From: Corallococcus sp. AB011P
GTDB taxonomy: Bacteria; Myxococcota; Myxococcia; Myxococcales; Myxococcaceae
NCBI RefSeq assembly: GCF_003611605.1
Contig: NZ_RAVX01000011.1
Location: 4,811 to 68,810 of the forward strand
Direction: 5' to 3'
Length of the DNA: 64,000 nucleotides
Shown here one piece after another: positions 21,959 to 42,833 of this stretch. Position 1 is the stretch's first letter. The number at the start of each line of letters is the position of its first letter. The notes under the pieces were generated by a model. It was not told the origin of the DNA. It ran no database searches and was given only the letters and a program-made list of their open reading frames with translations. The position numbers were made by a program, and so were the translations under genes.

Positions 21959-22691
21959 TGGGCGCCTGCTGGGTGGGCTGGTGGCCCTGCTCTGTCTGTC
22001 TTGCGCTTCGGGTCCAAGGCAGTACGCGCAGACGTCCGACTCCGCGACCAGTGGATGTCTGCGCAATCCCACCTGCTACACGCAGCCGGGGGATGAAGCG
22101 TTCCTGCCGTGGGTGGACAAGGCCGCCAGGGCCGCGGCCACGGCAGGCGCCACGATGAAGCTCCTGGAGGCGGCGGACGTCGCCCGCATCGAGCACCTGT
22201 TGGTGGAGTGCGCGAAGGAAGCGGACTTCATCGTCAATGAGCGTGAGTACGGCCAGGGGAGATACCCGGACGACAAGGAGTGCTTGCGAGTGGTCGGCCA
22301 TGACAAGAACGGCGACCCCATCCGACGGCAGGCCGAGCTTGGGACGATGAAGCATGACGTTGCTTTCGCATGCGTGCGGCGTGAAATCCTCCGGCTCTTC
22401 CCTGAAAATGTCTCGATTGAGCCGCGCTATAGCGGCGACGCCAGCGCTGGCGGCCCTACCTTGACGAGAATCTGGACGGGCTCGAACAAGCCCGACATCG
22501 TCCTTCACGCCACAGGACAGGCTCTCCAGATTCAATGCATCTTCGACTTCAAGTTTCCTTGCACCCTCTCAGGCAAAAGCCAGCCGCTCGCCAGTTCTGA
22601 GACCCGGAAGCAAATGGCCCGCTACAAGGATTTGGGCGGAAAATGCAAGCCGGCCATCATCACTCCTCAGTTTGGAGTCTTGCGTGAGTAA
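21951..22691 (+). CDS. Secreted/lipoprotein-like protein with PD-(D/E)xK nuclease-like C-terminal motif; low-GC islet
   Basis: ATG 21951 overlaps the previous stop by 8 nt. Signal peptide MIDGRLLGGLVALLCLSCAS. C-terminal ...KPDIVLHATGQALQIQCIFDFKFPC (PD ... D-x-K spacing). Local GC is about 56%. Confidence 0.5.
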   Translation: MIDGRLLGGLVALLCLSCASGPRQYAQTSDSATSGCLRNPTCYTQPGDEAFLPWVDKAARAAATAGATMKLLEAADVARIEHLLVECAKEADFIVNEREYGQGRYPDDKECLRVVGHDKNGDPIRRQAELGTMKHDVAFACVRREILRLFPENVSIEPRYSGDASAGGPTLTRIWTGSNKPDIVLHATGQALQIQCIFDFKFPCTLSGKSQPLASSETRKQMARYKDLGGKCKPAIITPQFGVLRE

Positions 22692-22743
22692 GTACCCCTC
22701 ATTCCACCACTTCGCCGATTCACTCCCCCGAGTCCAACTGGTC

Positions 22744-23688
22744 ATGCGCATTGCATTCTACTTGCCGCACGACCATGCAGTCGTAGCGCCAATCCTCCAA
22801 CGCGCCCTCGACATCTATCGTGAGTTCATCGAACTCAGTGGCGGGGCCCTGACCGTCGGAGAGGATTCCGACATCATTGAGGATGCCTTCCCGCTTCAAT
22901 CCGAGTTCTGGGAGGAAGTTCAACGCCACCTCACCAGGCCTCGATTTGAATACCTGGACGACATGGACCCGGACTCCTATTGGTTCCGGAGATTGACCAA
23001 GAGGAACTACGACACATGGGTTCTCCTCAAGGGAGGACATTCGGAACCGGATGGCTACGAATTCAGTTTCGAGTCTCGGCTCCCATGGCGAGGACCCTCT
23101 TCCGAGCACAGCGTTCTGAGCGTGCAGGTCCCGATTGGTTTCCTGGAGACTCAAGGTCCCGAGAAGGCCCTTGAACTGGCACGGTCGCTGGCGGAGCTCC
23201 TTCCGTTCTCCACGGGCCATGCCGGGCTGTCGCTCTCATTCCCGCGCGGGAGGTCGAAACTCCTTCCCCTTCTCAAGGAGCAGCTGGCCCGGCATCCCGG
23301 CTGGCACGTTCCGCCTACGCTGGCGTGGGGCTTGGGACCGTGGATCGACGACGTGCACTGGCTGAACTTCCTGGGCCCACCCCTCCTTGAAACCGTTGGC
23401 GGTCTCCAGGCGCTCCGCTCGCACCTGAGCCATCCGGAGACCCGCGTCCAGGAGCTCACCGGAGGCCGTGCGCTGATCAGCCTGGGCCCCGCGCCGCTCG
23501 CGGGGGACACGAAGCTGGGTGAGACACTGCCGGCGTATCGCGAGCTGGCCCGGTTCCTGGAGCCCTGGCTCCTGCCCCTCCCCCACGTCAACACCTGGGA
23601 CGGCTACACCGACGAGGAGGCACGTCTCTGGTGGCGCCGCTTCCTGGAGGCCCCTCCCAAGAAGACATCCGACCCACACGACGGGTAA
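22744..23688 (+). CDS. Putative cognate immunity-like cytoplasmic protein (hypothetical), low-GC islet
   Basis: ATG 22744 (alternative TTG 22672 overlapping the upstream gene). No signal peptide. Low GC. It sits immediately downstream of the secreted nuclease-like gene. Confidence 0.45.
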
Positions 23689-34130: not shown

Positions 34131-35729
34131 ATGTTCAACGTCATCAACGTCTCCAAGGCCTACGGGCCCAAGAAACTTTTCGAGGAGGTCAACGTCGCCT
34201 TCTCGCCGGGCCGCCGCTACGGCCTGACCGGTCCGAACGGGGCCGGCAAGTCCACGTTCATGAAGATCCTCGCGGGTGACGAGGAGCAGGACATGGGCGA
34301 CATCATCCGCCCGCGGAAGCTGGGCATCCTGCGCCAGGACCACTTCCGCTACGAGAACGACCGCGTCATCGACGTGGTGCTGATGGGCAACCGCCACCTG
34401 TGGGCGGCGATGGACGAGAAGAACAAGCTGCTGGCCAAGTCCGACATCACCGATGAGGACGGCAACCGGCTGGGTGAGCTGGAAGGCATCATCGCGGAAG
34501 AGGACGGCTATTCGGCGGAGAGTGACGCGGCCACGCTGCTGGCCGGCCTGGGCATCGAGGAGTCCTTCCACGAAGAGCCCATGCGCCAGCTGACGGGCGG
34601 CCTGAAGCTGCGCGTGTTGCTCGCGCAGGCGCTGTTCGGCAAGCCGGAGGGGCTGCTGCTCGACGAGCCCACGAACAACCTGGACATCGATTCCATCCGC
34701 TGGCTGGAGAACTTCCTGCATGTGTACGAGGGCGTGCTGATCACCATCAGCCACGACCGGCACTTCCTGAACTCCATCTGCACGCACATCGCGGACATCG
34801 ATTACGAGACCATCATCCAGTACACGGGTGGTTACGACGACATGGTCCGGCAGAAGTCGCAACTGCGCACCCGGGTCGAGTCCGAGACGGCGGAGAAGAA
34901 GAAGAAGATCGCCCAGCTGCAGGACTTCGTGGCGCGCTTCCACGCCGGTACGCGAGCGTCTCAGGTGCAGAGCCGCATCAAGCAGATCGACAAGCTGAAG
35001 ACGGAGGACCTGAAGCGCTCGAACATCGCGCGGCCGTTCATCCGGTTCGACCAGAAGGTGGTCAGCGGTCGGCAGACGCTGATGTTCGAGGGCCTGAAGA
35101 AGTCCTTCGACGGGGTGCCGGTCATCAAGCCGTTCACGGGCCTGGTCTGCAAGGGCGAGCGCATCTGCGTCATCGGCCGCAACGCCGTGGGTAAGTCCAC
35201 GCTGGTGAAGATGCTGGCCAACCAGCTGGAGCCGGACGCGGGGACCATCACCTGGGGCCACCAGGCGACGGTGGGCTACCTGCCGCAGGACCACCACGGC
35301 GTCATCCACAAGGGGACGACGTGCTTCGGCTACCTGCGGGAGATCAGCGAGAAGCTGACGAACGAGGAGATCTCGGGCGTGTTGGGCCGGATGCTCTTCT
35401 CGGGTGAGGAGCGGATGAAGGCGACGGACACGCTCTCCGGTGGTGAGACGGTGCGAGTGCTGTTGTCCAAGCTGATGATCACGCAGGACAACGTGCTGAT
35501 CCTGGACGAGCCGACGAACCACCTGGACCTGGAGTCCATCGCGGCGCTGGCGGAAGGTTTGTCGAAGTTCGACGGCACGGTCATCTGCGTGACGCACGAC
35601 CAGGAGCTCATCTCCGAGGTCGCGACCCGCATCTGGAGCCTGGAGGCGGGCAAGGAAGTGCTCGACTTCAACGGCCCCTACTCCGAGTTCATGGAGAAGC
35701 ACGCGGACGCGGCGCTCAAGCGCCGATAG
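34131..35729 (+). CDS. ybiT: ABC-F family ATPase (YbiT-like), two ABC domains
   Basis: Near-collinear with E. coli YbiT from memory (GPNGAGKST, LSGG..., second Walker A GRNAVGKST). Confidence 0.85.
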   Translation: MFNVINVSKAYGPKKLFEEVNVAFSPGRRYGLTGPNGAGKSTFMKILAGDEEQDMGDIIRPRKLGILRQDHFRYENDRVIDVVLMGNRHLWAAMDEKNKLLAKSDITDEDGNRLGELEGIIAEEDGYSAESDAATLLAGLGIEESFHEEPMRQLTGGLKLRVLLAQALFGKPEGLLLDEPTNNLDIDSIRWLENFLHVYEGVLITISHDRHFLNSICTHIADIDYETIIQYTGGYDDMVRQKSQLRTRVESETAEKKKKIAQLQDFVARFHAGTRASQVQSRIKQIDKLKTEDLKRSNIARPFIRFDQKVVSGRQTLMFEGLKKSFDGVPVIKPFTGLVCKGERICVIGRNAVGKSTLVKMLANQLEPDAGTITWGHQATVGYLPQDHHGVIHKGTTCFGYLREISEKLTNEEISGVLGRMLFSGEERMKATDTLSGGETVRVLLSKLMITQDNVLILDEPTNHLDLESIAALAEGLSKFDGTVICVTHDQELISEVATRIWSLEAGKEVLDFNGPYSEFMEKHADAALKRR

Positions 35730-35743
35730 TCCTTCGCTACTTC

Positions 35744-35800
35744 AGGCAGTGCCAACGCCGCCCGTTTCCGGTCCTCCGGAAGCGAGGCGGCGTTTTCGTG
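35744..35800 (+). repeat. Direct repeat copy A (hairpin-forming about 55-bp element) at left border of low-GC island; also likely intrinsic terminator of the ABC-F gene
   Basis: aggcagtgccaacgccgcccgtttccggtcctccggaagcgaggcggcgttttcgtg. It forms an imperfect 17-bp stem and a T-run. Confidence 0.7.
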
Positions 35801-35896
35801 CGGGTGTCCATCCCTCTCCCGGGTGATGTCGCTTCCTTGAGCGGGTCGGCAAGACTCACGCCAGGCCGTCAGTCCATGGTGGCCTGGGGGTGAGCG

Positions 35897-37456
35897 ATGG
35901 TTCTGTCCATGATGTGGGGACTGTTGGCGTCGCTGTTCGCGGCCTTGTGGTTCCGGTCCCGCTCTCACGTTCACGAGTTGCAGGAGCGGTTCAAGCCCAT
36001 CGTGGACATTGAAGCCGAGAAGAGACGAATCACAGAAGAGATCGCACAAACACAACGGGCCGCCACAAAGGCCCTTGAAGCTGAGCGCCATCGGGCAGCC
36101 CAGGAATTGGCTGAAGCCCGTGGCATCGCTGCCAAGGAGCGCATCGACGAACAGACGCGAGTGCTCGCCCAGCTTGCTCGAGAAAAGGAGTCTTCCGCGA
36201 AGGCCATCGCCGAGGAGAAGAAGCAAGCGGCCTCGGAATGTCACCGCATGCGGGAAGAGGCTTCACGAGCAACGGTGGCCGCCGCACGGTCTGTGACTGA
36301 AGCGGAAGAACAGCGTCAGAAGCTGCTCTTGGAGCAACGGGAGCTGAAAGCCACCATCGTTCGGTTACGCGAAGAGCTTCGTCCCCTGGATGAAGAAGCA
36401 ATTCTCCTCTCCACCGGCTTCTACAAGTCGGTTTACGCCTTCTCCTCCGTCGAGGAGTACGAGCGCCGCCTCGATGCGCTTCGAGAGACGCAGAAGTCAA
36501 TGCTGCAGAACAAGGTGGCGGCGACCTGCTCTCTGGAGTGGGAGGTCAATGGCAGTAAGGCCGAGGGCAGAAAGCAAACGGAGCGTACGCTGAAGCTGAT
36601 GCTCCGCGCCTTCAACGGCGAAGCCGATGCCTGCGTCGCGAAAGTGACCTACAAAAACATCAAGACCATGGAAGCTCGCATCGAAAAGGCAGCGGATGCG
36701 ATCAATGCGTTGACGAAGATCCAGCAATGCACCATCGCGAGCAAGTACGTTGCCCTCAAGCTGGACGAACTGCGCCTGGCTCATGAATACGCCGAGAGGG
36801 TCCAGCAGGAGCGCGACGAGCAGAAGCGCATTCGGGAGCAGATGCGCGAGGAAGAAGCGGCGCAGCGCGAACTTGAGAAGGCGAAGCTTGAGGCGGAGCG
36901 AGAGGCGAAGCGAGACGCGGAGGCCCTGGCGAAGGCGAAAGCCGACTACGAAAGAGCCAAGGGCTCCGAGCAGCAAAAGCTTCTGGAGCGCATCGCGGAA
37001 CTGGAGCGCCGCGTCGCAGAAGACCTGGAAAAACAGAGAGCCATCTCCCAGGCCCAGCTCACGCGGACGGGGCACGTCTACGTCATCTCCAACATCGGCT
37101 CCTTTGGAGAGGGCGTGTTCAAGATGGGAATGACCCGGCGGCTGGTGCCCCAGGACCGCATCGACGAGCTGGGAGACGCGTCGGTGCCCTTCGAGTTCGA
37201 CGTCCACGCCATCATCCGGACCTCGGATGCCCCGGCACTTGAAAGCGCACTGCACAAGGCCTTCGCGAACCGGCGCGTCAACCGCATCAACGAGCGCAAG
37301 GAGTTCTTCCGCGTCGGCCTGGATGAGATCGCGGAGGCGGTCCGCAAGCATCACGGTGAGTTTGAATTGACCCGGATTGCTGAAGCTGCGGAATACCGGA
37401 AGACGTTGGCACTCCAAGAGGAGGAGCGCCTCACGCATGCTGAACGGGCGGCGTAG
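35897..37456 (+). CDS. Membrane-anchored coiled-coil protein with DUF4041-like region and C-terminal T5orf172 (GIY-YIG-like, MUG113) domain
   Basis: N-terminal TM helix MVLSMMWGLLASLFAALWF; long E/R/K coiled coil. The C-terminus GHVYVISNIGSFGEGVFKMGMTRRLVPQDRIDELGDASVPFEFDVHAII...KEFFRV matches the T5orf172 pattern. Local GC is about 58%. Confidence 0.65.
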   Translation: MVLSMMWGLLASLFAALWFRSRSHVHELQERFKPIVDIEAEKRRITEEIAQTQRAATKALEAERHRAAQELAEARGIAAKERIDEQTRVLAQLAREKESSAKAIAEEKKQAASECHRMREEASRATVAAARSVTEAEEQRQKLLLEQRELKATIVRLREELRPLDEEAILLSTGFYKSVYAFSSVEEYERRLDALRETQKSMLQNKVAATCSLEWEVNGSKAEGRKQTERTLKLMLRAFNGEADACVAKVTYKNIKTMEARIEKAADAINALTKIQQCTIASKYVALKLDELRLAHEYAERVQQERDEQKRIREQMREEEAAQRELEKAKLEAEREAKRDAEALAKAKADYERAKGSEQQKLLERIAELERRVAEDLEKQRAISQAQLTRTGHVYVISNIGSFGEGVFKMGMTRRLVPQDRIDELGDASVPFEFDVHAIIRTSDAPALESALHKAFANRRVNRINERKEFFRVGLDEIAEAVRKHHGEFELTRIAEAAEYRKTLALQEEERLTHAERAA

Positions 37457-37481
37457 GCTCTGAACCGCGTGTGCCTCGGTT

Positions 37482-39239
37482 ATGGTTGCGTCATCAATGG
37501 GCTCTGAGAAACTGCTTCCCTCGTTGGATGCGCTTCGTAGTGCGGTGAAAGCCGCCACACGCAAAAAGAAGATCGCATTCCTTGTCGGCTCTCCGCTCTC
37601 GATGCAAGAGACACCTGATGCGCCACAAGTCCCGGGCGTCACAGCAATGCTCCAATTCATTCGGAAGCGGGTTCCTTCCGAGCACCTAGAGCAGTTCGAT
37701 GCGGGACTGAAAGTAGACAGAGAGAATACTTACCAGTGGGCAATGAAGTTCATTCAGGACCGTGATAGCCGATCGGTCGCCAATGAGGTCATTCGAGAAG
37801 CGGTCCTACGAGCCCGGTTGCATCCTGATGCAGATCAGGGGCTTGAGGACGTCCAAATCGATACCGACTTCAGCGGATGGGCACTCCCCCCTGCAACGCT
37901 ACATCTCGGCGGATTGCTTGCTGAACATCCTGGACGTTTCGGTCCAGTCATGACGACCAATTTCGATCCGCTCCTTCCTGCTTCGGTAAAAGCTGCGGGC
38001 GGGGAGGTCCTTCGCACTGTCGTCGACCGCGACGAGCCTTTCAGCCAAGCAAAGCTCTCTGCCTCCAACTTCTCACACCTCGTCTACCTCCATGGCTATT
38101 GGCTGGAGGCGGAGACGCTCCACACCTCGATTGAACTCGCACGCGAGCGCCCCCGCGTCGCAGCCGACATTACCCATGTCTTAACCAGCCACACGCTCGT
38201 TGTCGTGGGATATGGAGGCTGGGATGATATCTTCACTCAGACTCTTGCTGCCATTAGCGCAGACCGCCATAAGCAGGTTGACATTCTGTGGGCCTTTTTC
38301 GACAAAGAGACCAGTGTCGTCCAGGCTCGCAACAAACATTTCCTTGACAGAGTCAGGGAACTGACGGGACGGAATCAACTCCGCCTCTATGGGGGCATCA
38401 ACTGCCATGAACTCTTCGCGAGGCTCCGTGAAGACTTCGGCACATCTGGCACCGCCACAACTCAGCCCCCAAACAAGGCACCCAAACAAGGCAAGGTTGA
38501 ACCGCAGCGGCCAGCACCAATTGCAACAAGCGCCAAAGCCCCTGAGCCGACGACCTCGACGCCTCACAGCACTACGAGCGCGCCTACGCCAACGCCCTCC
38601 GTGCCAAGCATCCCCGTCTCCCCATCCGTTCCGAAGACGGACGCCACGGCCAGTCCTCCGAAATCAACATCCAGCAGAATCCTGCCTTTTGCGGCTGCCG
38701 CGCTGTTTGCTGGCGGCATGGCTGCCGTATGGCCATCCCCCAGCAAAGGCGTGAGCAATGACGTCATCGCCATCCCACCTCCGCGCAATCTGAGACCTGT
38801 CCAGCCGCAGCCCCCGACGACGACCGCTCCGGCCCCGGTACCCGCAAGCACGCTCAGAAGCGTTCGCCAACAACACCAGGTTGTGGCAGCTTCGGACGCC
38901 GAACGCGGAACTCGCGTCTCACAACTTCCCCGGGGGCGCTACGCATTTGTCCCGATGAGCGCCGTTCCCACCTACAGTGCGGACACCACCATCTACGGCC
39001 CCATCCAGGAGGGAATCGAGCTTCACCGCGCGCTAGCGGATGGATCCTTGTATCTCGTGGGCTATGCGGATGCCCCAACCATGGCGGCCCTCGGATATCC
39101 GAAACCTGCGCCCATCGTCATTACCCCCACACCCGGTGGTAGAAGGACGCAGGTCGCGAGCATTCCGGTATCTCGGATGACCACCGCTGAAGTGCGCATG
39201 GATAAAGGCACCCGCGTGTTGGTTCTTCACCTCAACTAA
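37482..39239 (+). CDS. SIR2-like (SIR2_2) domain protein with Pro/Thr-rich linker, single TM helix and C-terminal extracytoplasmic domain
   Basis: IAFLVGSPLS, VMTTNFDPLL, VYLHGYW and VVVGYGGWDD match the DHS-like SIR2_2 fold. TM helix ILPFAAAALFAGGMAAVW. It lies 25 nt after the previous gene. Confidence 0.65.
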   Translation: MVASSMGSEKLLPSLDALRSAVKAATRKKKIAFLVGSPLSMQETPDAPQVPGVTAMLQFIRKRVPSEHLEQFDAGLKVDRENTYQWAMKFIQDRDSRSVANEVIREAVLRARLHPDADQGLEDVQIDTDFSGWALPPATLHLGGLLAEHPGRFGPVMTTNFDPLLPASVKAAGGEVLRTVVDRDEPFSQAKLSASNFSHLVYLHGYWLEAETLHTSIELARERPRVAADITHVLTSHTLVVVGYGGWDDIFTQTLAAISADRHKQVDILWAFFDKETSVVQARNKHFLDRVRELTGRNQLRLYGGINCHELFARLREDFGTSGTATTQPPNKAPKQGKVEPQRPAPIATSAKAPEPTTSTPHSTTSAPTPTPSVPSIPVSPSVPKTDATASPPKSTSSRILPFAAAALFAGGMAAVWPSPSKGVSNDVIAIPPPRNLRPVQPQPPTTTAPAPVPASTLRSVRQQHQVVAASDAERGTRVSQLPRGRYAFVPMSAVPTYSADTTIYGPIQEGIELHRALADGSLYLVGYADAPTMAALGYPKPAPIVITPTPGGRRTQVASIPVSRMTTAEVRMDKGTRVLVLHLN

Positions 39240-39245
39240 CAAACA

Positions 39246-39923
39246 ATGAAACTCAACAACAGAATCCTTTCCCTTGGGTTGATGTCACTCCTCTTGCTTG
39301 CGGGTTGTGGGCCCGAGGACTTCAACCCGGGCCCCTCCAATCCCGGCGTGGAAGATCCGCCGCCACTCGACGAAATTTGCACTGCCGGAAACTGCGCGGG
39401 TTGCTGTGATCCGACCACGAACAAATGCGTCCAGGTTCGCACCAACGACGCATGCGGTGCCAATGGCGTTACCTGCACGAAGTGCGCGACCGGGACCATC
39501 TGCCACCCATCACAGCAGCAGTGCTACACGCCTACCATTCGCACGAAGATCCGGGCCCTGCGTGCCACGATTTCTTCGCATGATCCCGCGGATGACAGCG
39601 ACTGGGATGTCGACGGCTCACCACCGGACGCCTTGATTGAACTGATCTGCCCCAACGCCCAGCCTGCGGTTTCCAGGTCGGAAGAGATTGAGAGCTTCAC
39701 CCCCAACTGGACGACAGGGGGATGTGATGTTCTCAGCACGGATCTGCTTTCCATGCCTGTCCAGTTCAACGTTCTCGATGTCGACGTCATCGTCGATGAC
39801 AAGGTTGCGTCAGCCCAATACCAGTTCACCCAAGCCGACATCGAACGTGGAGTCGTAGAATTGACGGTCTCCAATACACTGACCTCAGTGGTCTTCCAGC
39901 TCACCACCTACTACGCCGAATAG
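39246..39923 (+). CDS. Cys-rich lipoprotein (low-GC copy of a two-member family in this window)
   Basis: Lipobox LLLAGCGPE. Cys cluster GNCAGCCDPTTNKCVQV...CGANGVTCTKCATGTICHPSQQQCY. DGSPPD, TTGGCDV. It is a paralog of 47149..47769. It lies 6 nt after the SIR2 gene. Confidence 0.6.
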   Translation: MKLNNRILSLGLMSLLLLAGCGPEDFNPGPSNPGVEDPPPLDEICTAGNCAGCCDPTTNKCVQVRTNDACGANGVTCTKCATGTICHPSQQQCYTPTIRTKIRALRATISSHDPADDSDWDVDGSPPDALIELICPNAQPAVSRSEEIESFTPNWTTGGCDVLSTDLLSMPVQFNVLDVDVIVDDKVASAQYQFTQADIERGVVELTVSNTLTSVVFQLTTYYAE

Positions 39924-39957
39924 GCCGAAACCCAAGAGCGCCGTTTCTGAGGTTCCT

Positions 39958-40014
39958 GGCAGTGCCAACGCCGCCCGTTTCCGGTCCGTCCGGAAGCGAG
40001 GCGGCGTTTGTCGC
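39958..40014 (+). repeat. Direct repeat copy B at right border of the low-GC island
   Basis: ggcagtgccaacgccgcccgtttccggtccgtccggaagcgaggcggcgtttgtcgcg; about 47/48 identical to copy A with one 1-nt indel. Confidence 0.7.
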
Positions 40015-40301
40015 GTCAAGGCTCCGTTGGAGGCACCAGGAGCGCACGAGCAGGCGGGTCCGAGCAAATGGGCGGCAGTGCGCCTGCTGCACGGGAATGG
40101 CGCGGATGCTTCTTGAACAAGCATTGGAAGCCCGCGCCCGCACCAGGGTGTTGGCACCGACGGCACAGGCTTGGGCGTGCGCATTGAAGCCCTTACCGTC
40201 CGTTTCGCGGAACAATGCTCGATCCGTGAGGCTCCAACGGCTGGTGGCCCAGAAGCCGAACGTGACGGTGCGCGAGGCGTCAGCGGGTATGATGCAAGGC
40301 C

Positions 40302-41732
40302 ATGTACCCGACACGCCGTCTTCTGGCCCGTGGACCGTGGCTGTTTGATCTCAGACCGCATCGGCTCATCGTCTTCCACGGAGATGAAGCCGTGCGCCGG
40401 GAGGTCAGTGGAGACGTGCCGAATCCTCCGTCCGCGCCCGTGGTGCTCGCCGCACTGGATGAGGCAAAGGACGCCTGGGTGGGATGCGGGGATCAGCGTG
40501 TCTTCTCCGTGGGGGTCGGCGCAAGCGCTCCCGCCCAGGCCCTTCCGAGGGAGTGCTTCGATCTCATCACCGATGGGGACCGGCTCATCGCAACGGTGGT
40601 GGACGGCGCCCTCAAGCTGACCACCCTCTTCACGACCGATGGATCCGGGCAGCGATGGGAACCCATGACCTTGCCCAAGCCCGTGTCCGCCAGGCACGGG
40701 TACGGATACAGCGAGGGGCGCCCCCACCGTCAGTCCCCCGATGGGGCGTTCCTCGATACGAGCCCCTTTGGCATCACCGTCGTGGAGAAGGGCCGGGGCC
40801 GCGTCTACGTGCTCCGCTCGGGGGCGGCTCAGCCGGAGGGTGCGCTCCAGGTGGAGCCGGGCCATGAGCAGGACATCTGGCGGGCCCAGGCCACTCCCCT
40901 CGGCGTGCTCCTCCTGCTCGTCATCAACTACCGGCAGACGGCGCTCCTCCACTTCGCGCTCGATGGCACCCTGCTCGGATCCATCCCGGGGAGTGATGAT
41001 GATGACGATGAGGAGGAGGAACAGACCTGGGGCGGTGCCGGGGTGTGCGTCCTCGACGCGGCCCGGGCGCTCCTCTTCGTCCAGGACAAGATCCTCCTGG
41101 TGTCCCTGCCCGGGCTCCAGGTGCTCGAGACGCTCGTGGGAGAGTGGCCCCACTTCGTGTCCGTGACGCCCGCGGGTGCTGACCGGTGGTGGGTGGGCGC
41201 CGAGGACAGTGACGCGCTCTTCCTGCTCACCGCCGAGCCTGGACACCCCTTGCACCTCCACGCCTCACACCGTCCGGTGAGCCCGGGCGCGCCGCTCATG
41301 CACGTGGGCTACAAGACGCCCGCATTCCACTGGACCGAGTACACCTCGGCGCCGCTCACTGTGTCCTCGCCCGTGACCGAGACGTGGCGGGCGATGGTGC
41401 GCAATGACGGGACCGCGTGTGAGGCGGTGCGGATCCGCGTGTCCGGGGTGCTCGTCGGCGCTCGCGTGGTGGACGTGAGCGTGCGGTATCGCGGCCAGCC
41501 GCTCCCGATGGTGGAGGAGCACCGCGTGAACCTCGTGGGGAAAACCGCTGGACTGGAGGGAGGGTCCACCGCGGAGCTGGAGGTGACCTTCAAGCCCCGG
41601 AGCGAGGGCTCGGGACCGCTGACCATCACCGTCGAGCCGTGCTCCTGGCAGTGGCAGGGCAAGGACGAGCCTCGCGCCCTCGGAGTGACGGGCCATCCGG
41701 CATCCGTCCAATTCCTGCTCACGGTGGAGTAG
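40302..41732 (+). CDS. Hypothetical protein (476 aa) with acidic insert DDDDDEEEEQ
   Basis: Long ORF with G+C3 bias. The opposite-strand ORF 39885..41261 is low-complexity shadow. Confidence 0.45.
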   Translation: MYPTRRLLARGPWLFDLRPHRLIVFHGDEAVRREVSGDVPNPPSAPVVLAALDEAKDAWVGCGDQRVFSVGVGASAPAQALPRECFDLITDGDRLIATVVDGALKLTTLFTTDGSGQRWEPMTLPKPVSARHGYGYSEGRPHRQSPDGAFLDTSPFGITVVEKGRGRVYVLRSGAAQPEGALQVEPGHEQDIWRAQATPLGVLLLLVINYRQTALLHFALDGTLLGSIPGSDDDDDEEEEQTWGGAGVCVLDAARALLFVQDKILLVSLPGLQVLETLVGEWPHFVSVTPAGADRWWVGAEDSDALFLLTAEPGHPLHLHASHRPVSPGAPLMHVGYKTPAFHWTEYTSAPLTVSSPVTETWRAMVRNDGTACEAVRIRVSGVLVGARVVDVSVRYRGQPLPMVEEHRVNLVGKTAGLEGGSTAELEVTFKPRSEGSGPLTITVEPCSWQWQGKDEPRALGVTGHPASVQFLLTVE

Positions 41733-41777: not shown

Positions 41778-42833
41778 TCACCACTTCCAGAGCAGGGCGC
41801 CGCCTCCGAGCAGGAACGCCAGGCCCACTGCCGCCGCGAGGATCCAGGCTCGTCCCAAGCGGGGCCGCGCCTGGCTCTCCGGGCCATCCGGAGCCGGGGC
41901 GGCGACGGTCGGGTCGTCGCTCGGAGAGACCTGCTGGACGAGCTGGGCCACCTGCCGCGAGGTCACCGGCTCCCCCTCCGAGCGGATGAAATCCTCCAGC
42001 TCCTTCCGGAACGCGTGGCAGTCCGGGTAGCGCTGATCCCGATCTTTCGCGAGCGCCCGGGCGAGGATGGCTCGAAGGGCATCGGGCAGGTCTGGCCGGT
42101 GCTGCTCGGCCGGCACGAGGGGCTCGGACACGACGACCCGAAGCAAGTCCCAGTCGGACGTGGACTCAAAGGGCCTGCGCGTGGTGAGCAGTTCGTAGAG
42201 CACCAGTCCCAGCGAGTAGACGTCCACCCGCCGGTCCACCGGCACGCCCATGATCTCCTCGGGCGCCATGTACCGGTACTTGCTCATGATGGGGATGTGG
42301 TGTTCGGGGGTCCACCGGGCCCGGAAGTAGTCGATGCCGAAGTCCACCACCTTGGCCGTCCCCTGGCGCGACAGGAGAATGTTGTACGGCCGGACGCAGC
42401 GGTGGATGAGCCGCAGCGGCTGTTTCGTCTTGGGGTCGGTGAGGTCGTGGGCATAGGCGAGCCCCTCGCAGGCTTGCGAGATGATGCGCGCGCACAGGGT
42501 CGCCGGCAGGGTCATCCCCTGGACCGACAGGTGCTTGATCACCCTTCGCAGACTGGGCCCATCGATGTGCTCCCTGGCGAGGAAGGATGTGCCGTCCGCC
42601 TCCCCCACGTCGAAGACCCGCACGAGGTGCGGGTGCGTGAGCCGGGCGGCGCTCATCGCCGTGTCGAGGAACATCTCCGGGAACTCCATCTGCTCGGCCA
42701 TGTCCGACCGGAGGCACTGGAGCACCAGCGTCTTCTCGCTGCCCTGCGGGCCGGCGGCCCTGGCCAGATAATCCTCGATGATGCCTTCGGCGAGCAGGCG
42801 GATGCGCTGGTATTTGCCGACGTGGGATGTCAC
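41778..42833 (-). CDS. Membrane-anchored Ser/Thr-kinase-fold protein, predicted pseudokinase
   Basis: The kinase fold is retained (DFG in VVDFGI, APE in YMAPEE, HPHLVRV). The Gly-rich loop is absent (LLAEGIIEDYL), the beta3 Lys is replaced (TLVLQCL) and HRD becomes HRC (IHRCVRPYNIL). C-terminal TM WILAAAVGLAFLLGGGALLW. Confidence 0.7.
   Translation of the reverse strand: MTSHVGKYQRIRLLAEGIIEDYLARAAGPQGSEKTLVLQCLRSDMAEQMEFPEMFLDTAMSAARLTHPHLVRVFDVGEADGTSFLAREHIDGPSLRRVIKHLSVQGMTLPATLCARIISQACEGLAYAHDLTDPKTKQPLRLIHRCVRPYNILLSRQGTAKVVDFGIDYFRARWTPEHHIPIMSKYRYMAPEEIMGVPVDRRVDVYSLGLVLYELLTTRRPFESTSDWDLLRVVVSEPLVPAEQHRPDLPDALRAILARALAKDRDQRYPDCHAFRKELEDFIRSEGEPVTSRQVAQLVQQVSPSDDPTVAAPAPDGPESQARPRLGRAWILAAAVGLAFLLGGGALLWKW

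What the first reader, a model, noticed from the sequence alone, without database searches (positions are those of the whole stretch)
35744..40014. About 4.2-kb low-GC island bracketed by near-identical about 55-bp hairpin-forming direct repeats
Copy A (35744-35800, just after the ABC-F stop) reads aggcagtgccaacgccgcccgtttccggtcctccggaagcgaggcggcgttttcgtg. Copy B (39958-40014) reads ggcagtgccaacgccgcccgtttccggtccgtccggaagcgaggcggcgtttgtcgcg. They differ by one 1-nt indel, and then by a few distal bases. Each folds into an imperfect 17-bp stem (aacgccgcccgtttccgg / ccggaagcgaggcggcgtt). The three genes between them (35897-39923) have about 57-58% GC against about 70% outside. This is the signature of site-specific insertion that duplicated the terminator-like 3' end of the ABC-F gene (an attL/attR-like pair), or of a repeated mobile hairpin element. 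No integrase or transposase remains in the window.
Basis: seen in the sequence. Interest (0 to 1): 0.66.

Follow-up and report, generated by a model that had tools for sequence, protein, structure and literature searches.

The report
Defence-gene hotspot bracketed by duplicated terminator
The low-GC island is one strain's load of anti-phage genes in a slot just after a conserved ABC-F gene that holds different defence genes in almost every Corallococcus strain, and its two flanking repeats are two copies of that gene's terminator hairpin, probably left by recombination rather than by a classical mobile element.

Summary
Two hairpin copies (35745-35795 and 39958-40009) are identical at 51 positions with one extra base in the loop. 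They bracket a three-gene operon at 59.7% GC, against about 70% outside.

The window comes from Corallococcus sp. AB011P. The hairpin is not a genome-wide repeat: it is the terminator-like 3' end of the ABC-F gene and occurs at only this locus in each genome.

The interval between ABC-F and a conserved 476-aa gene is a hypervariable defence hotspot. Twenty-five strains show at least 12 cargo sets, including SNIPE/PD-lambda-1, Shedu, DRT8, OLD/AriA, Hhe and TIR. No integrase is present in any strain, and no empty site was found.

Here the cargo is SNIPE, a membrane-anchored SIR2 protein and a C2-like lipoprotein.

A second full or partial hairpin copy occurs in only a few strains, at junctions between stacked cargo blocks, and the extent of duplication differs between them. 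I read copy B as a scar of recombination-driven stacking that now also terminates the cargo operon. A classical attL/attR pair is less likely but not excluded.

Overall this is a new member of a known kind, the integrase-free core defence hotspot. Two modestly novel leads remain: a cassette-like hairpin junction and a conserved SIR2/lipoprotein pair.

The parts
34131..35729 (+). ABC-F family ATPase gene (532 aa). This is the conserved left flank of the hotspot.
   Evidence: Pfam ABC_tran x2 plus ABC_tran_Xtn. It is 100% identical to the Corallococcus sp. AB011P protein P0134. DNA identity to 24 other Corallococcus strains is 94-98%.
35745..35795 (+). Hairpin copy A, the terminator-like stem-loop of ABC-F (18-bp stem, bulged A, TTTT tail).
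   Evidence: It is present once, at the same position after ABC-F, in all 24 other Corallococcus strains whatever their cargo, though diverged in the C. praedator group.
35801..35828 (+). Conserved post-hairpin motif (CGGGTGTCCATCCCTCTCCCGGGTGATG, with a small inverted repeat CATCCC/GGGATG). For most strains, sequence shared with the window ends here.
   Evidence: It is conserved in strains with unrelated cargo. It is duplicated together with the hairpin in L017 and L028 (p=0.002 each). Its function is unknown.
35829..35896 (+). Cargo-specific leader upstream of the first island gene.
   Evidence: It is shared only with L014 (91%) and with L008, where homology runs to 35911 although the cargo differs. 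No sigma-70-like promoter was called.
35897..37456 (+). SNIPE / PD-lambda-1 homologue (519 aa): N-terminal transmembrane segment, coiled coil, DUF4041, GIY-YIG (T5orf172) nuclease.
   Evidence: PADLOC PD-Lambda-1 E=1.5e-150. Pfam DUF4041 1.9e-22 and T5orf172 4.2e-17. A hydrophobic N-terminus at residues 1-20. The family is described in PMC13190303.
37482..39239 (+). SIR2-like protein (585 aa; the database annotation starts at 37497). Layout: SIR2 domain about 10-320, Pro/Thr/Ser-rich linker, transmembrane segment about 398-418, confidently folded beta-rich C-terminal domain about 455-585.
   Evidence: Pfam SIR2_2 5.8e-7 and only weak SIR2-domain hits in PADLOC. The AF2 model has pLDDT 82-95 in the C-terminal domain. 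The best Foldseek matches are defence NADases: SPARSA, SIR2-HerA, KomC, DSR2 and ThsA. N160, D162 and H204 are invariant. It is 100% identical to P0145.
39246..39923 (+). Lipoprotein (225 aa): lipobox LLLAG-C21, Cys-rich region, C2-like beta-sandwich. It starts 6 nt after the SIR2 stop codon and is probably co-transcribed with it.
   Evidence: Sequence. The AF2 model matches the cPLA2 C2 domain with probability 1.0. A 34%-identical paralogue hits Pfam C2. A 41%-identical homologue follows the SIR2 homologue in Myxococcus.
39958..40009 (+). Hairpin copy B, a second copy of the ABC-F terminator hairpin, 35 nt after the lipoprotein stop codon.
   Evidence: An orthologous copy sits at the same place in L017, and a partial one in L028.
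40010..40231 (.). Strain-specific spacer (65.8% GC over 40010-40275) between copy B and the conserved right flank. It may be the remnant of older cargo or of a minimal site.
   Evidence: No match in any of 24 other strains or elsewhere in the window.
40232..40301 (+). Start of the conserved right flank. All strains share GGCGTCAGTGGGTATGATGCAGGGCCATG from 40276/7. Some share sequence from about 40232.
   Evidence: In L020-L022 an IS630-type element sits exactly at this boundary.
40302..41732 (+). Conserved 476-aa hypothetical gene (no Pfam family), the right flank of the hotspot.
   Evidence: DNA identity between strains is 87-91%.
41778..42833 (-). Ser/Thr protein kinase gene, part of the conserved right flank (followed in other strains by beta-lactamase, GST and HxlR genes).
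   Evidence: Pfam Pkinase 1.5e-26. Synteny is shown.

Best explanation
The region is one strain's allele of a chromosomal anti-phage defence hotspot. In Corallococcus, the interval between the conserved ABC-F ATPase gene and a conserved 476-483-aa gene holds a different set of low-GC, mostly defence-related genes in nearly every strain.

In this strain (Corallococcus sp. AB011P) the cargo is a three-gene operon:
- SNIPE/PD-lambda-1, a membrane-bound GIY-YIG nuclease.
- A SIR2 protein with a transmembrane segment and an extracytoplasmic C-terminal domain.
- A Cys-rich, C2-like lipoprotein.

The two 52-nt repeats are two copies of the intrinsic-terminator-like hairpin that ends the ABC-F gene. 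Copy A is the resident terminator and is present in all strains. Copy B is a junction scar, formed when two hotspot alleles were stacked by recombination that used the conserved ABC-F 3' end and hairpin as the shared sequence. Two routes fit: single-crossover (Campbell-type) entry of a circle carrying the hairpin, or homology-facilitated illegitimate recombination anchored in the right flank.

Once present, copy B probably terminates the cargo operon and insulates the downstream gene. It also offers a 52-90-bp homology arm through which the distal cargo can be swapped.

Shown here: the identity and rarity of the repeat, the hotspot, the nature of the cargo, the stacking order, and the absence of an integrase. 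Inferred only: terminator activity, the recombination route, and the defence activity of the SIR2/lipoprotein pair.

Confidence by part: about 0.9 that this is a defence hotspot with a duplicated ABC-F terminator, and about 0.5-0.6 that the duplication arose without a dedicated site-specific recombinase.
For: 1. The hairpin is the ABC-F 3' end and not a dispersed repeat. There is one locus per genome in four Corallococcus reference genomes and no repeat family in 185,579 species genomes. It lies directly after ABC-F in all 24 other strains.

2. The site is a hotspot. At least 12 cargo architectures occur in 25 strains between shared boundaries at about 35828 and 40232-40277.

3. The cargo is defence-related:
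- PD-Lambda-1, E=1.5e-150.
- Shedu, 1.6e-132.
- Hhe/PDC-S37, PDC-M51A, Drt8 with its PD-(D/E)XK partner, a TIR effector, AriA/Old, and a PNP/Avs-like protein.

4. The cargo is compositionally foreign: 59.7% against 70% GC, and GC3 0.62-0.75 against 0.85-0.94.

5. Second hairpin copies sit at junctions between stacked cargo blocks:
- L017: module, then hairpin plus post-hairpin motif, then the start of further low-GC sequence.
- L028: module, then a partial hairpin (right arm plus motif, p=0.002), then the radical-SAM cargo that lies directly after ABC-F in L010, L013 and L015.
- L009: Kelch gene, then a 40-nt ABC-F coding remnant plus hairpin, then the AAA_21-methyltransferase gene also found in L010. 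That remnant is 37/40 identical to the C. exercitus allele and not to the genome's own allele, p<0.0005.

6. The extent of duplication differs between events: hairpin only here, hairpin plus 32 nt on the 3' side in L017, and at least 40 nt on the 5' side plus the hairpin in L009.

7. No integrase or recombinase was seen in any hotspot or within 10 kb in the syntenic loci; only IS66 and IS630 copies occur.

8. No phage, plasmid, viral or metagenomic contig carries the hairpin or the island.

9. The module is old. Its alleles are 67-90% identical in DNA, against 94-98% for ABC-F.
Against: - Duplication of the 3' end of a conserved gene at both ends of an island is the textbook signature of integrase-mediated insertion. 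Two or more independent duplications at the same spot could reflect a preferred recombination site.
- The conserved post-hairpin motif, with its small inverted repeat, has no assigned role and could be a recombinase site.
- Only 8-21 kb per strain could be inspected, so a trans-acting recombinase elsewhere in these 9-10-Mb genomes is not excluded.
- Terminator activity is untested. The T-tract is short (4 and 3 T), and the simple terminator scan did not call either copy because of the bulged stem.
- No empty site and no excised circle were observed, so the direction of events (insertion proximal or distal to the older cargo) is not resolved.
- The near-identity of copies A and B here (51/52), against 6-7 differences between the two copies in L017, is unexplained. 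It could mean a more recent event or gene conversion.
Confidence: 0.68

Rival explanations
1. Classical attL/attR pair. The island is a decayed integrative element (CIME-like) that entered by site-specific recombination at the 3' end of ABC-F. Its integrase was lost or acts in trans, and stacking arose by successive integrations into the att site (accretion).
For: - Direct repeats derived from the 3' end of a conserved gene bracket foreign DNA.
- Blocks are stacked and separated by further copies in L017, L028 and L009, as described for CIME/IME accretion (PMC5704250).
- L009 copy b carries a foreign-allele remnant of the ABC-F 3' coding end, as an attP-borne copy would.
- A conserved motif with a small inverted repeat follows the hairpin.
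Against: - No integrase or recombinase in the hotspot of any of 25 strains, nor within 10 kb in the syntenic loci.
- The hairpin is absent from the viral and metagenome contig collections, and the island is absent from the phage and plasmid collections.
- The ends of the duplicated segment differ between events.
- The variable region extends 220-266 nt beyond copy B.
- The other 19 of 24 strains carry foreign cargo with only one hairpin copy. In five module-bearing strains, a pentapeptide-repeat gene replaces copy B.
Confidence: 0.2
2. A dispersed repetitive hairpin element (REP/BIME-, MITE- or IS200/IS605-PATE-like) that happens to flank the island.
For: The repeat is an imperfect palindrome of the size typical of such elements, and the two copies are in direct orientation.
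Against: - Only two copies in 64 kb.
- One locus per genome in four Corallococcus reference genomes, and nine loci in total among 185,579 species genomes.
- No Rfam family.
- Copy A is present in every strain whatever the cargo, so it is not the left end of a transposable unit.
Confidence: 0.02
3. Two independently evolved terminators, or a chance resemblance.
For: G+C-rich hairpins after stop codons are common in high-GC genomes.
Against: - 51 of 52 positions are identical, including the unpaired 5' lead GGCAGTGCC and the bulge.
- None is expected by chance.
- Orthologous second copies in other strains extend into flanking ABC-F-derived sequence.
Confidence: 0.01

Closest known systems
Integrase-free 'core defence hotspots' flanked by conserved core genes (for example cDHS1/cDHS2 of Pseudomonas aeruginosa; Johnson et al. 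2023, PMC10250203)
   Same: Both have fixed conserved flanking genes, highly variable and mostly defence-related content between strains, lower GC than the core genome, and no consistent mobile-element genes. In both cases transfer by homologous recombination of the flanks has been proposed. All of these features were found here.
   Different: The host clade is different (Myxococcota, Corallococcus). The hotspot is small (about 2-12 kb). Some alleles keep extra copies of the left-flank terminator hairpin at junctions between stacked cargo blocks, a feature that PMC10250203 does not mention ('direct repeat' and 'terminator' each occur 0 times in its text).
CIMEs and tandem accretion of integrative elements at the 3' end of a gene (Pavlovic et al. 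2004; reviewed in PMC5704250)
   Same: [quoted passage not shown]
   Different: No integrase, relaxase or remnant of one was found in any of 25 alleles. The repeat ends are not constant. Most alleles have a single copy.
Integron cassette arrays (attC hairpins, insertion next to a fixed site)
   Same: A folded imperfect hairpin follows a cargo unit. Cargo units are stacked downstream of a fixed site. The content is strain-variable.
   Different: There is no IntI gene. By inspection the hairpin lacks the R''/L''-L'/R' layout and the GTTRRRY core (the sequence reads GTTTTCG and GTTTGTC). The units are multi-gene and of different composition. Most arrays have only one hairpin.
SNIPE / PD-lambda-1 (Vassallo et al. 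2022; Saxton et al. 2026, PMC13190303)
   Same: Gene 1 has the defining layout of an N-terminal transmembrane segment, DUF4041 and a GIY-YIG nuclease, and it matches the PADLOC model over its whole length.
   Different: SNIPE is described as a single-gene system. Here, and in 10 other Corallococcus strains, it is always followed by the SIR2 and lipoprotein genes. Activity was not tested.
Defence-associated SIR2 NADases (ThsA, DSR1/DSR2, SIR2-HerA, SPARSA, SIR2-STAND Avs)
   Same: Gene 2 has the SIR2 fold, and its closest structural matches are exactly these proteins. N, D and H residues in the conserved TTNFDPL and LHGYW motifs are invariant. The closest sequence relatives outside Myxococcaceae are SIR2-STAND fusions.
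   Different: The SIR2 domain is fused through a disordered linker and a transmembrane segment to a small extracytoplasmic domain. It is paired with a C2-like lipoprotein instead of HerA, pAgo, SLOG or STAND partners. No PADLOC system model covers it.

Membership tests
Integrase-mobilised genomic island (attL/attR) | Direct repeats at both ends, derived from the target site (the 3' end of the target gene) | tested here: met
   The hairpin copies are identical at 51 positions with one extra base in copy B, and copy A is the ABC-F 3' end. In this genome only the hairpin is duplicated; the flanks are not significantly similar.
Integrase-mobilised genomic island (attL/attR) | A tyrosine or serine recombinase gene inside or next to the island | tested here: not met
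   Pfam scans of the three island genes and their neighbours found none. There is none in the hotspot or within 10 kb in 24 other strains; only IS66 and IS630 transposases occur.
Integrase-mobilised genomic island (attL/attR) | An empty site with a single repeat copy in related strains | tested here: inconclusive
   Nineteen strains have a single hairpin, but always followed by other cargo. No empty ABC-F-to-476-aa-gene junction was found. L031 lacks the module but also lacks the right-flank block.
Integrase-mobilised genomic island (attL/attR) | The same repeat end-points in independent insertions | tested here: not met
   The extents differ: hairpin only (window), plus 32 nt on the 3' side (L017), right arm plus the 3' motif (L028), and at least 40 nt on the 5' side plus the hairpin (L009).
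REP / MITE / PATE-type dispersed hairpin repeat | Many copies dispersed through the genome | tested here: not met
   Two copies in 64 kb, and one locus per genome in four Corallococcus reference genomes. The complete AB011P genome itself could not be scanned.
Integron cassette array | An IntI integrase with attI next to the array, and attC sites with R/L boxes | tested here: not met
   No integrase. The hairpin sequence lacks the GTTRRRY core by inspection.
Core defence hotspot (integrase-free, between conserved core genes) | The same conserved flanking genes in all strains | tested here: met
   TGT and ABC-F lie on the left. The 476-483-aa gene, Ser/Thr kinase, beta-lactamase, GST and HxlR lie on the right in 20 of 24 strains with enough sequence. 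Boundaries are at about 35828 and 40232-40277.
Core defence hotspot (integrase-free, between conserved core genes) | Strain-variable content enriched in defence systems, with deviant composition | tested here: met
   At least 12 architectures. PADLOC hits include PD-Lambda-1, SduA, Hhe/PDC-S37, PDC-M51A, Drt8, TIR effector, AriA/Old and PNP/Avs-like. GC is 50-64% against about 70%.
SNIPE / PD-lambda-1 | N-terminal membrane anchor, DUF4041 and GIY-YIG nuclease in one protein | tested here: met
   The layout is as in PMC13190303. Anti-phage activity cannot be tested with these tools.
Rho-independent terminator | A G+C-rich stem-loop directly followed by a U-tract, just after a stop codon | tested here: inconclusive
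   The stem is strong and lies 16 and 35 nt after stop codons. The T-tract is only 4 or 3 T, and the pattern scan did not call either copy. 3'-end mapping is needed.
Defence-associated SIR2 NADase | SIR2 fold with conserved N/D/H residues | tested here: met
   Pfam SIR2_2. The best Foldseek matches are SPARSA, SIR2-HerA, DSR2 and ThsA. N160, D162 and H204 are invariant. NADase activity was not tested.
Defence-associated SIR2 NADase | One of the known partner or sensor modules (HerA, pAgo/APAZ, SLOG, STAND, DSR2 C-terminal domain) | tested here: not met
   The C-terminal part is a linker, a transmembrane segment and a 130-aa beta-rich domain. The partner is a C2-like lipoprotein. Only domain-level PADLOC hits were found.

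The most novel reading that the evidence does not exclude
The ABC-F terminator hairpin together with the conserved post-hairpin motif may be a true recombination site, used by a recombinase encoded elsewhere in the genome. The hotspot would then be a cassette-like platform in which multi-gene defence blocks, each ending in or starting after a copy of the hairpin, are captured next to ABC-F and stacked. That would be an integron-like system for defence genes in Myxococcota, without a linked integrase.

A second and more probable novelty (about 0.4) is independent of the first. The membrane-spanning SIR2 protein and the C2-like lipoprotein may form a new envelope-sensing NAD-depletion defence module. 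They are conserved as a pair in Corallococcus and Myxococcus, always directly downstream of a nuclease gene (SNIPE or HSDR_N).
Probability: 0.12. Interest if true: 0.8.

Novelty: new member of a known kind. Interest (0 to 1): 0.45.

Why it matters
Integrase-free defence hotspots are known from Pseudomonas, E. coli, Acinetobacter and others, but how cargo enters them without mobility genes is an open question.

This small Corallococcus hotspot keeps visible junction scars: whole or partial copies of the left-flank terminator between stacked cargo blocks, and in one case a foreign-allele remnant of the flanking gene. Such scars give direct sequence evidence on how such slots are filled, and the locus is small enough to test experimentally.

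The locus is also a compact catalogue of myxobacterial defence genes. It points to an uncharacterised, conserved pair: a transmembrane SIR2 protein and a C2-like lipoprotein, sitting next to the membrane nuclease SNIPE.

Tried and rejected
- Exact-protein look-ups of the window's SNIPE, ABC-F and SIR2 proteins found no contig. Source identity was instead established by 100% matches to AB011P proteins.
It missed species whose hairpin differs at one base, and these were recovered through ABC-F look-ups.
- The hairpin pattern gave 0 hits in viral contigs and 0 in metagenome contigs.
- The island matched phages and plasmids only at the conserved SNIPE nuclease core.
- Rfam gave no family.
- The simple terminator and promoter scan called neither hairpin and no promoter.
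- I first read AGCGCCG(G)T upstream of copy B and of L017b as a remnant of the ABC-F coding end. Shuffle tests gave p=0.14 and p=0.27, so I dropped the claim for this genome.
- An IS200/IS605-PATE reading (subterminal hairpins) was rejected because copy A is present in all strains whatever the cargo.
- The integron attC reading was rejected for lack of IntI and of the attC core.
- blastn and tblastx of the 266-nt spacer found only the last 38 nt, which belong to the right flank.
- tblastn of the module proteins against L005 and L008 found nothing.
- The lipoprotein AF2 model is only moderate (pLDDT 61), so the C2 assignment rests on the model together with a Pfam hit on a paralogue.
- No paper on myxobacterial defence hotspots turned up in two searches.


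Full report
**1. Observation**

Positions 35745-35774 equal 39958-39987 (30/30) and 35775-35795 equal 39989-40009 (21/21). The only difference is one extra G in the loop of copy B.

The 30-mer, with up to three mismatches, occurs nowhere else in the window, and none is expected by chance. Each copy folds into an 18-bp G+C-rich stem with one bulged A, followed by TTTT or TTT. The z-scores are -4.6 and -5.5 against shuffles.

The DNA between the copies is 59.7% GC, against 70.4% to the left and 69.6% to the right. The three genes have GC3 of 0.62-0.75, against 0.94 for ABC-F.

Outside the 52 nt, the flanks of the two copies are not significantly similar.

**2. Source**

The ABC-F protein (532/532) and the SIR2 protein (580/580) are identical to proteins of Corallococcus sp. 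AB011P. Both are recorded on a 255,096-bp contig.

**3. The repeat is the ABC-F terminator, not a dispersed element**

A scan of one genome for each of 185,579 species with the 21-nt hairpin core found nine loci. Four are Corallococcus species, each with a single locus at the 3' end of the ABC-F orthologue. The hairpin follows ABC-F in all 24 other Corallococcus assemblies examined, though it is diverged in the C. praedator group. Rfam has no matching family. This refutes the REP alternative.

**4. The site is a hypervariable defence hotspot**

Context look-ups through ABC-F and SIR2 homologues gave 24 further strains. Sequence shared with the window ends at about 35828 on the left, 33 nt past hairpin A and after a conserved motif. 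It resumes at 40276/7, or at about 40232 in some strains, which is 26 nt before the ATG of a conserved 476-483-aa gene.

Between these points there are at least 12 cargo sets:
- SNIPE, SIR2 and lipoprotein: the window and L014.
- The same three genes preceded by a 1,725-aa Hhe/PDC-S37 helicase: L011, L012, L017, L024, L028, L029, L030 and L032.
- A 145-aa gene, a radical-SAM gene (PDC-M51A) and an AAA_21 ATPase, fused to a methyltransferase domain in L010 and L013: L010, L013 and L015.
- Shedu: L007.
- A Kelch/Ig protein plus AAA_21-methyltransferase: L009.
- An HTH-dNK protein: L016.
- DRT8 with a PD-(D/E)XK partner and a TIR effector: L018.
- An OLD/AriA-type nuclease: L019.
- A PNP/Avs-like 1,757-aa protein: L023.
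- Several sets of unknown genes.

IS66 and IS630 copies occur in some alleles. No integrase occurs in any hotspot or within 10 kb in the syntenic loci. No strain has an empty site. Myxococcus sp. SDU36 has neither the hotspot nor a recognisable hairpin.

**5. Where second hairpin copies occur**

Besides the window, a second copy is found in four kinds of allele:
- L017 has a full copy at the orthologous position: the same lipoprotein 3' end, then a 25-nt spacer. The copy continues into the post-hairpin motif (p=0.002), after which further low-GC sequence begins.
- L028 has a partial copy (right arm plus motif, p=0.002). It is followed by a leader resembling that of L010 and by the radical-SAM gene, which lies directly after ABC-F in L010, L013 and L015.
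- L029 and L030 have only a decayed relic, followed by a C2-like gene that in L031 lies directly after ABC-F.
- L009 has a full copy preceded by 40 nt of the ABC-F coding end, including the stop codon. That remnant is 37/40 identical to the C. exercitus allele rather than to the genome's own allele (p<0.0005). It lies between a Kelch gene and the AAA_21-methyltransferase gene.

In five module-bearing strains, a convergent pentapeptide-repeat gene takes the place of copy B.

Extra copies therefore mark junctions between stacked cargo blocks. They arose at least twice, and the duplicated segment has different ends each time.

**6. Age of the module**

The module is only 67-90% identical in DNA between strains, while ABC-F is 94-98% identical and the right flank 84-93%. 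The island is therefore an old, diverged allele and not a recent arrival. The two copies are nearly identical in this genome (51/52), whereas the two copies in L017 differ at 6-7 positions. This remains unexplained. It could reflect gene conversion, selection on the stem, or a later recombination event.

**7. Mechanism**

I favour recombination without a dedicated integrase. Two routes fit:
- A circle carrying the hairpin enters by a single crossover at the resident terminator.
- A linear fragment from another hotspot allele is anchored by homology in the right flank and joined illegitimately at its other end. This leaves the donor's ABC-F 3' end and hairpin as a scar, as in L009.

After that, copy B supplies a 52-90-bp homology arm for swapping the distal cargo, and probably serves as the terminator of the cargo operon.

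The classical att reading keeps about 0.2 probability. Duplication of a gene's 3' end and tandem accretion are its hallmarks (PMC5704250). A conserved motif of unknown role follows the hairpin, and only 8-21 kb per strain could be inspected. No phage, plasmid, viral or metagenomic sequence carries the hairpin.

**8. The cargo**

[quoted passage not shown] According to PMC13190303 this family cleaves phage DNA during injection.

Gene 2 has four parts:
- A SIR2 domain whose closest structural matches are all defence NADases.
- A disordered Pro/Thr/Ser-rich linker.
- A transmembrane segment.
- A confidently predicted 130-aa C-terminal domain.

Gene 3 is a lipoprotein with a Cys-rich region and a C2-like beta-sandwich. 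Its family has 285 representatives at E<=1e-3 among 1.84 billion cluster representatives.

Genes 2 and 3 are 6 nt apart. They recur as a pair with the same architecture in Myxococcus, at 35% and 41% identity, in a different low-GC locus. There the upstream gene is an HSDR_N nuclease instead of SNIPE. No PADLOC system model covers the pair. It is a candidate envelope-linked defence module. That is inference only.

**9. Comparison and verdict**

The closest known kind is the integrase-free core defence hotspot described in P. aeruginosa (PMC10250203). All of its defining features are met here. The terminator-copy junction scars and the SIR2/lipoprotein pair are the modestly new elements.

Noticed in passing
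window 22672-23688 (+): A second low-GC patch (55.6% GC at 22501-23000) holds a gene for a TsiV-family protein, the type VI secretion immunity protein for VRR-NUC effectors (Pfam PF11876, E=1.3e-39). A TsiV gene also lies upstream in the C. praedator locus L029.
   Followed up: partly
L025/L026/L027 8768-12519 (Myxococcus faecalis and relatives): The SIR2-TM-CTD protein and the C2-like secreted protein recur as an adjacent pair (35% and 41% identity). They lie in a 63% GC patch between a fatty-acid desaturase gene and carB, preceded by an HSDR_N-type nuclease instead of SNIPE. This suggests a nuclease + SIR2 + lipoprotein triad with an exchangeable nuclease.
   Followed up: partly
window 35801-35828, and the same position in most Corallococcus loci: A conserved motif lies directly after the terminator hairpin (TGTCCATCCCTCTCCCGGGGGATG, small inverted repeat CATCCC/GGGATG). 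It is kept in strains with unrelated cargo and is duplicated with the hairpin in L017 and L028. Its role is unknown; it could be an operator, part of the terminator, or a recombination site.
   Followed up: partly
window 40276-40304: The right boundary of the variable region is very sharp. All strains share GGCGTCAGTGGGTATGATGCAGGGCCATG and most diverge immediately upstream. TATGAT lies about 9 nt before the ATG, so the downstream gene may have a very short leader, with its -35 region inside the variable DNA.
   Followed up: no
L020 15816-16780, L021 5965-6929, L022 5903-6867: An IS630-type element (HTH plus DDE_3) sits exactly at the right boundary of the hotspot. It separates 38 nt that match window 40238-40275 from the rest of the right flank.
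   Followed up: partly
L008 3299-3410 (Corallococcus sp. CA053C): This strain shares the window's cargo leader and the first 14 nt of the SNIPE gene (to window 35911). It then continues with unrelated low-GC DNA that has no SNIPE, SIR2 or lipoprotein homologue. This looks like a scar of cargo replacement at an arbitrary point.
   Followed up: partly
L031 1969-2598; L029 21287 onward: A 209-aa paralogue of the island lipoprotein (34% identity, Pfam C2 hit) stands alone directly after ABC-F in one C. praedator-group strain, and after the full module in two others. In L031 the whole block from the 483-aa gene through kinase, beta-lactamase and GST to HxlR is absent.
   Followed up: partly
L011 1920-7097 and orthologues in L012, L017, L024, L028-L030 and L032: A 1,725-1,732-aa DUF4011/AAA_11/AAA_12/MTES_1575 helicase (PADLOC PDC-S37 at E=0; Hhe at 1.3e-285) precedes SNIPE in eight strains. 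It is absent from the window and from L014.
   Followed up: no
window 62581-62600: A weak match (5 errors) to the post-hairpin motif. It is probably chance.
   Followed up: no
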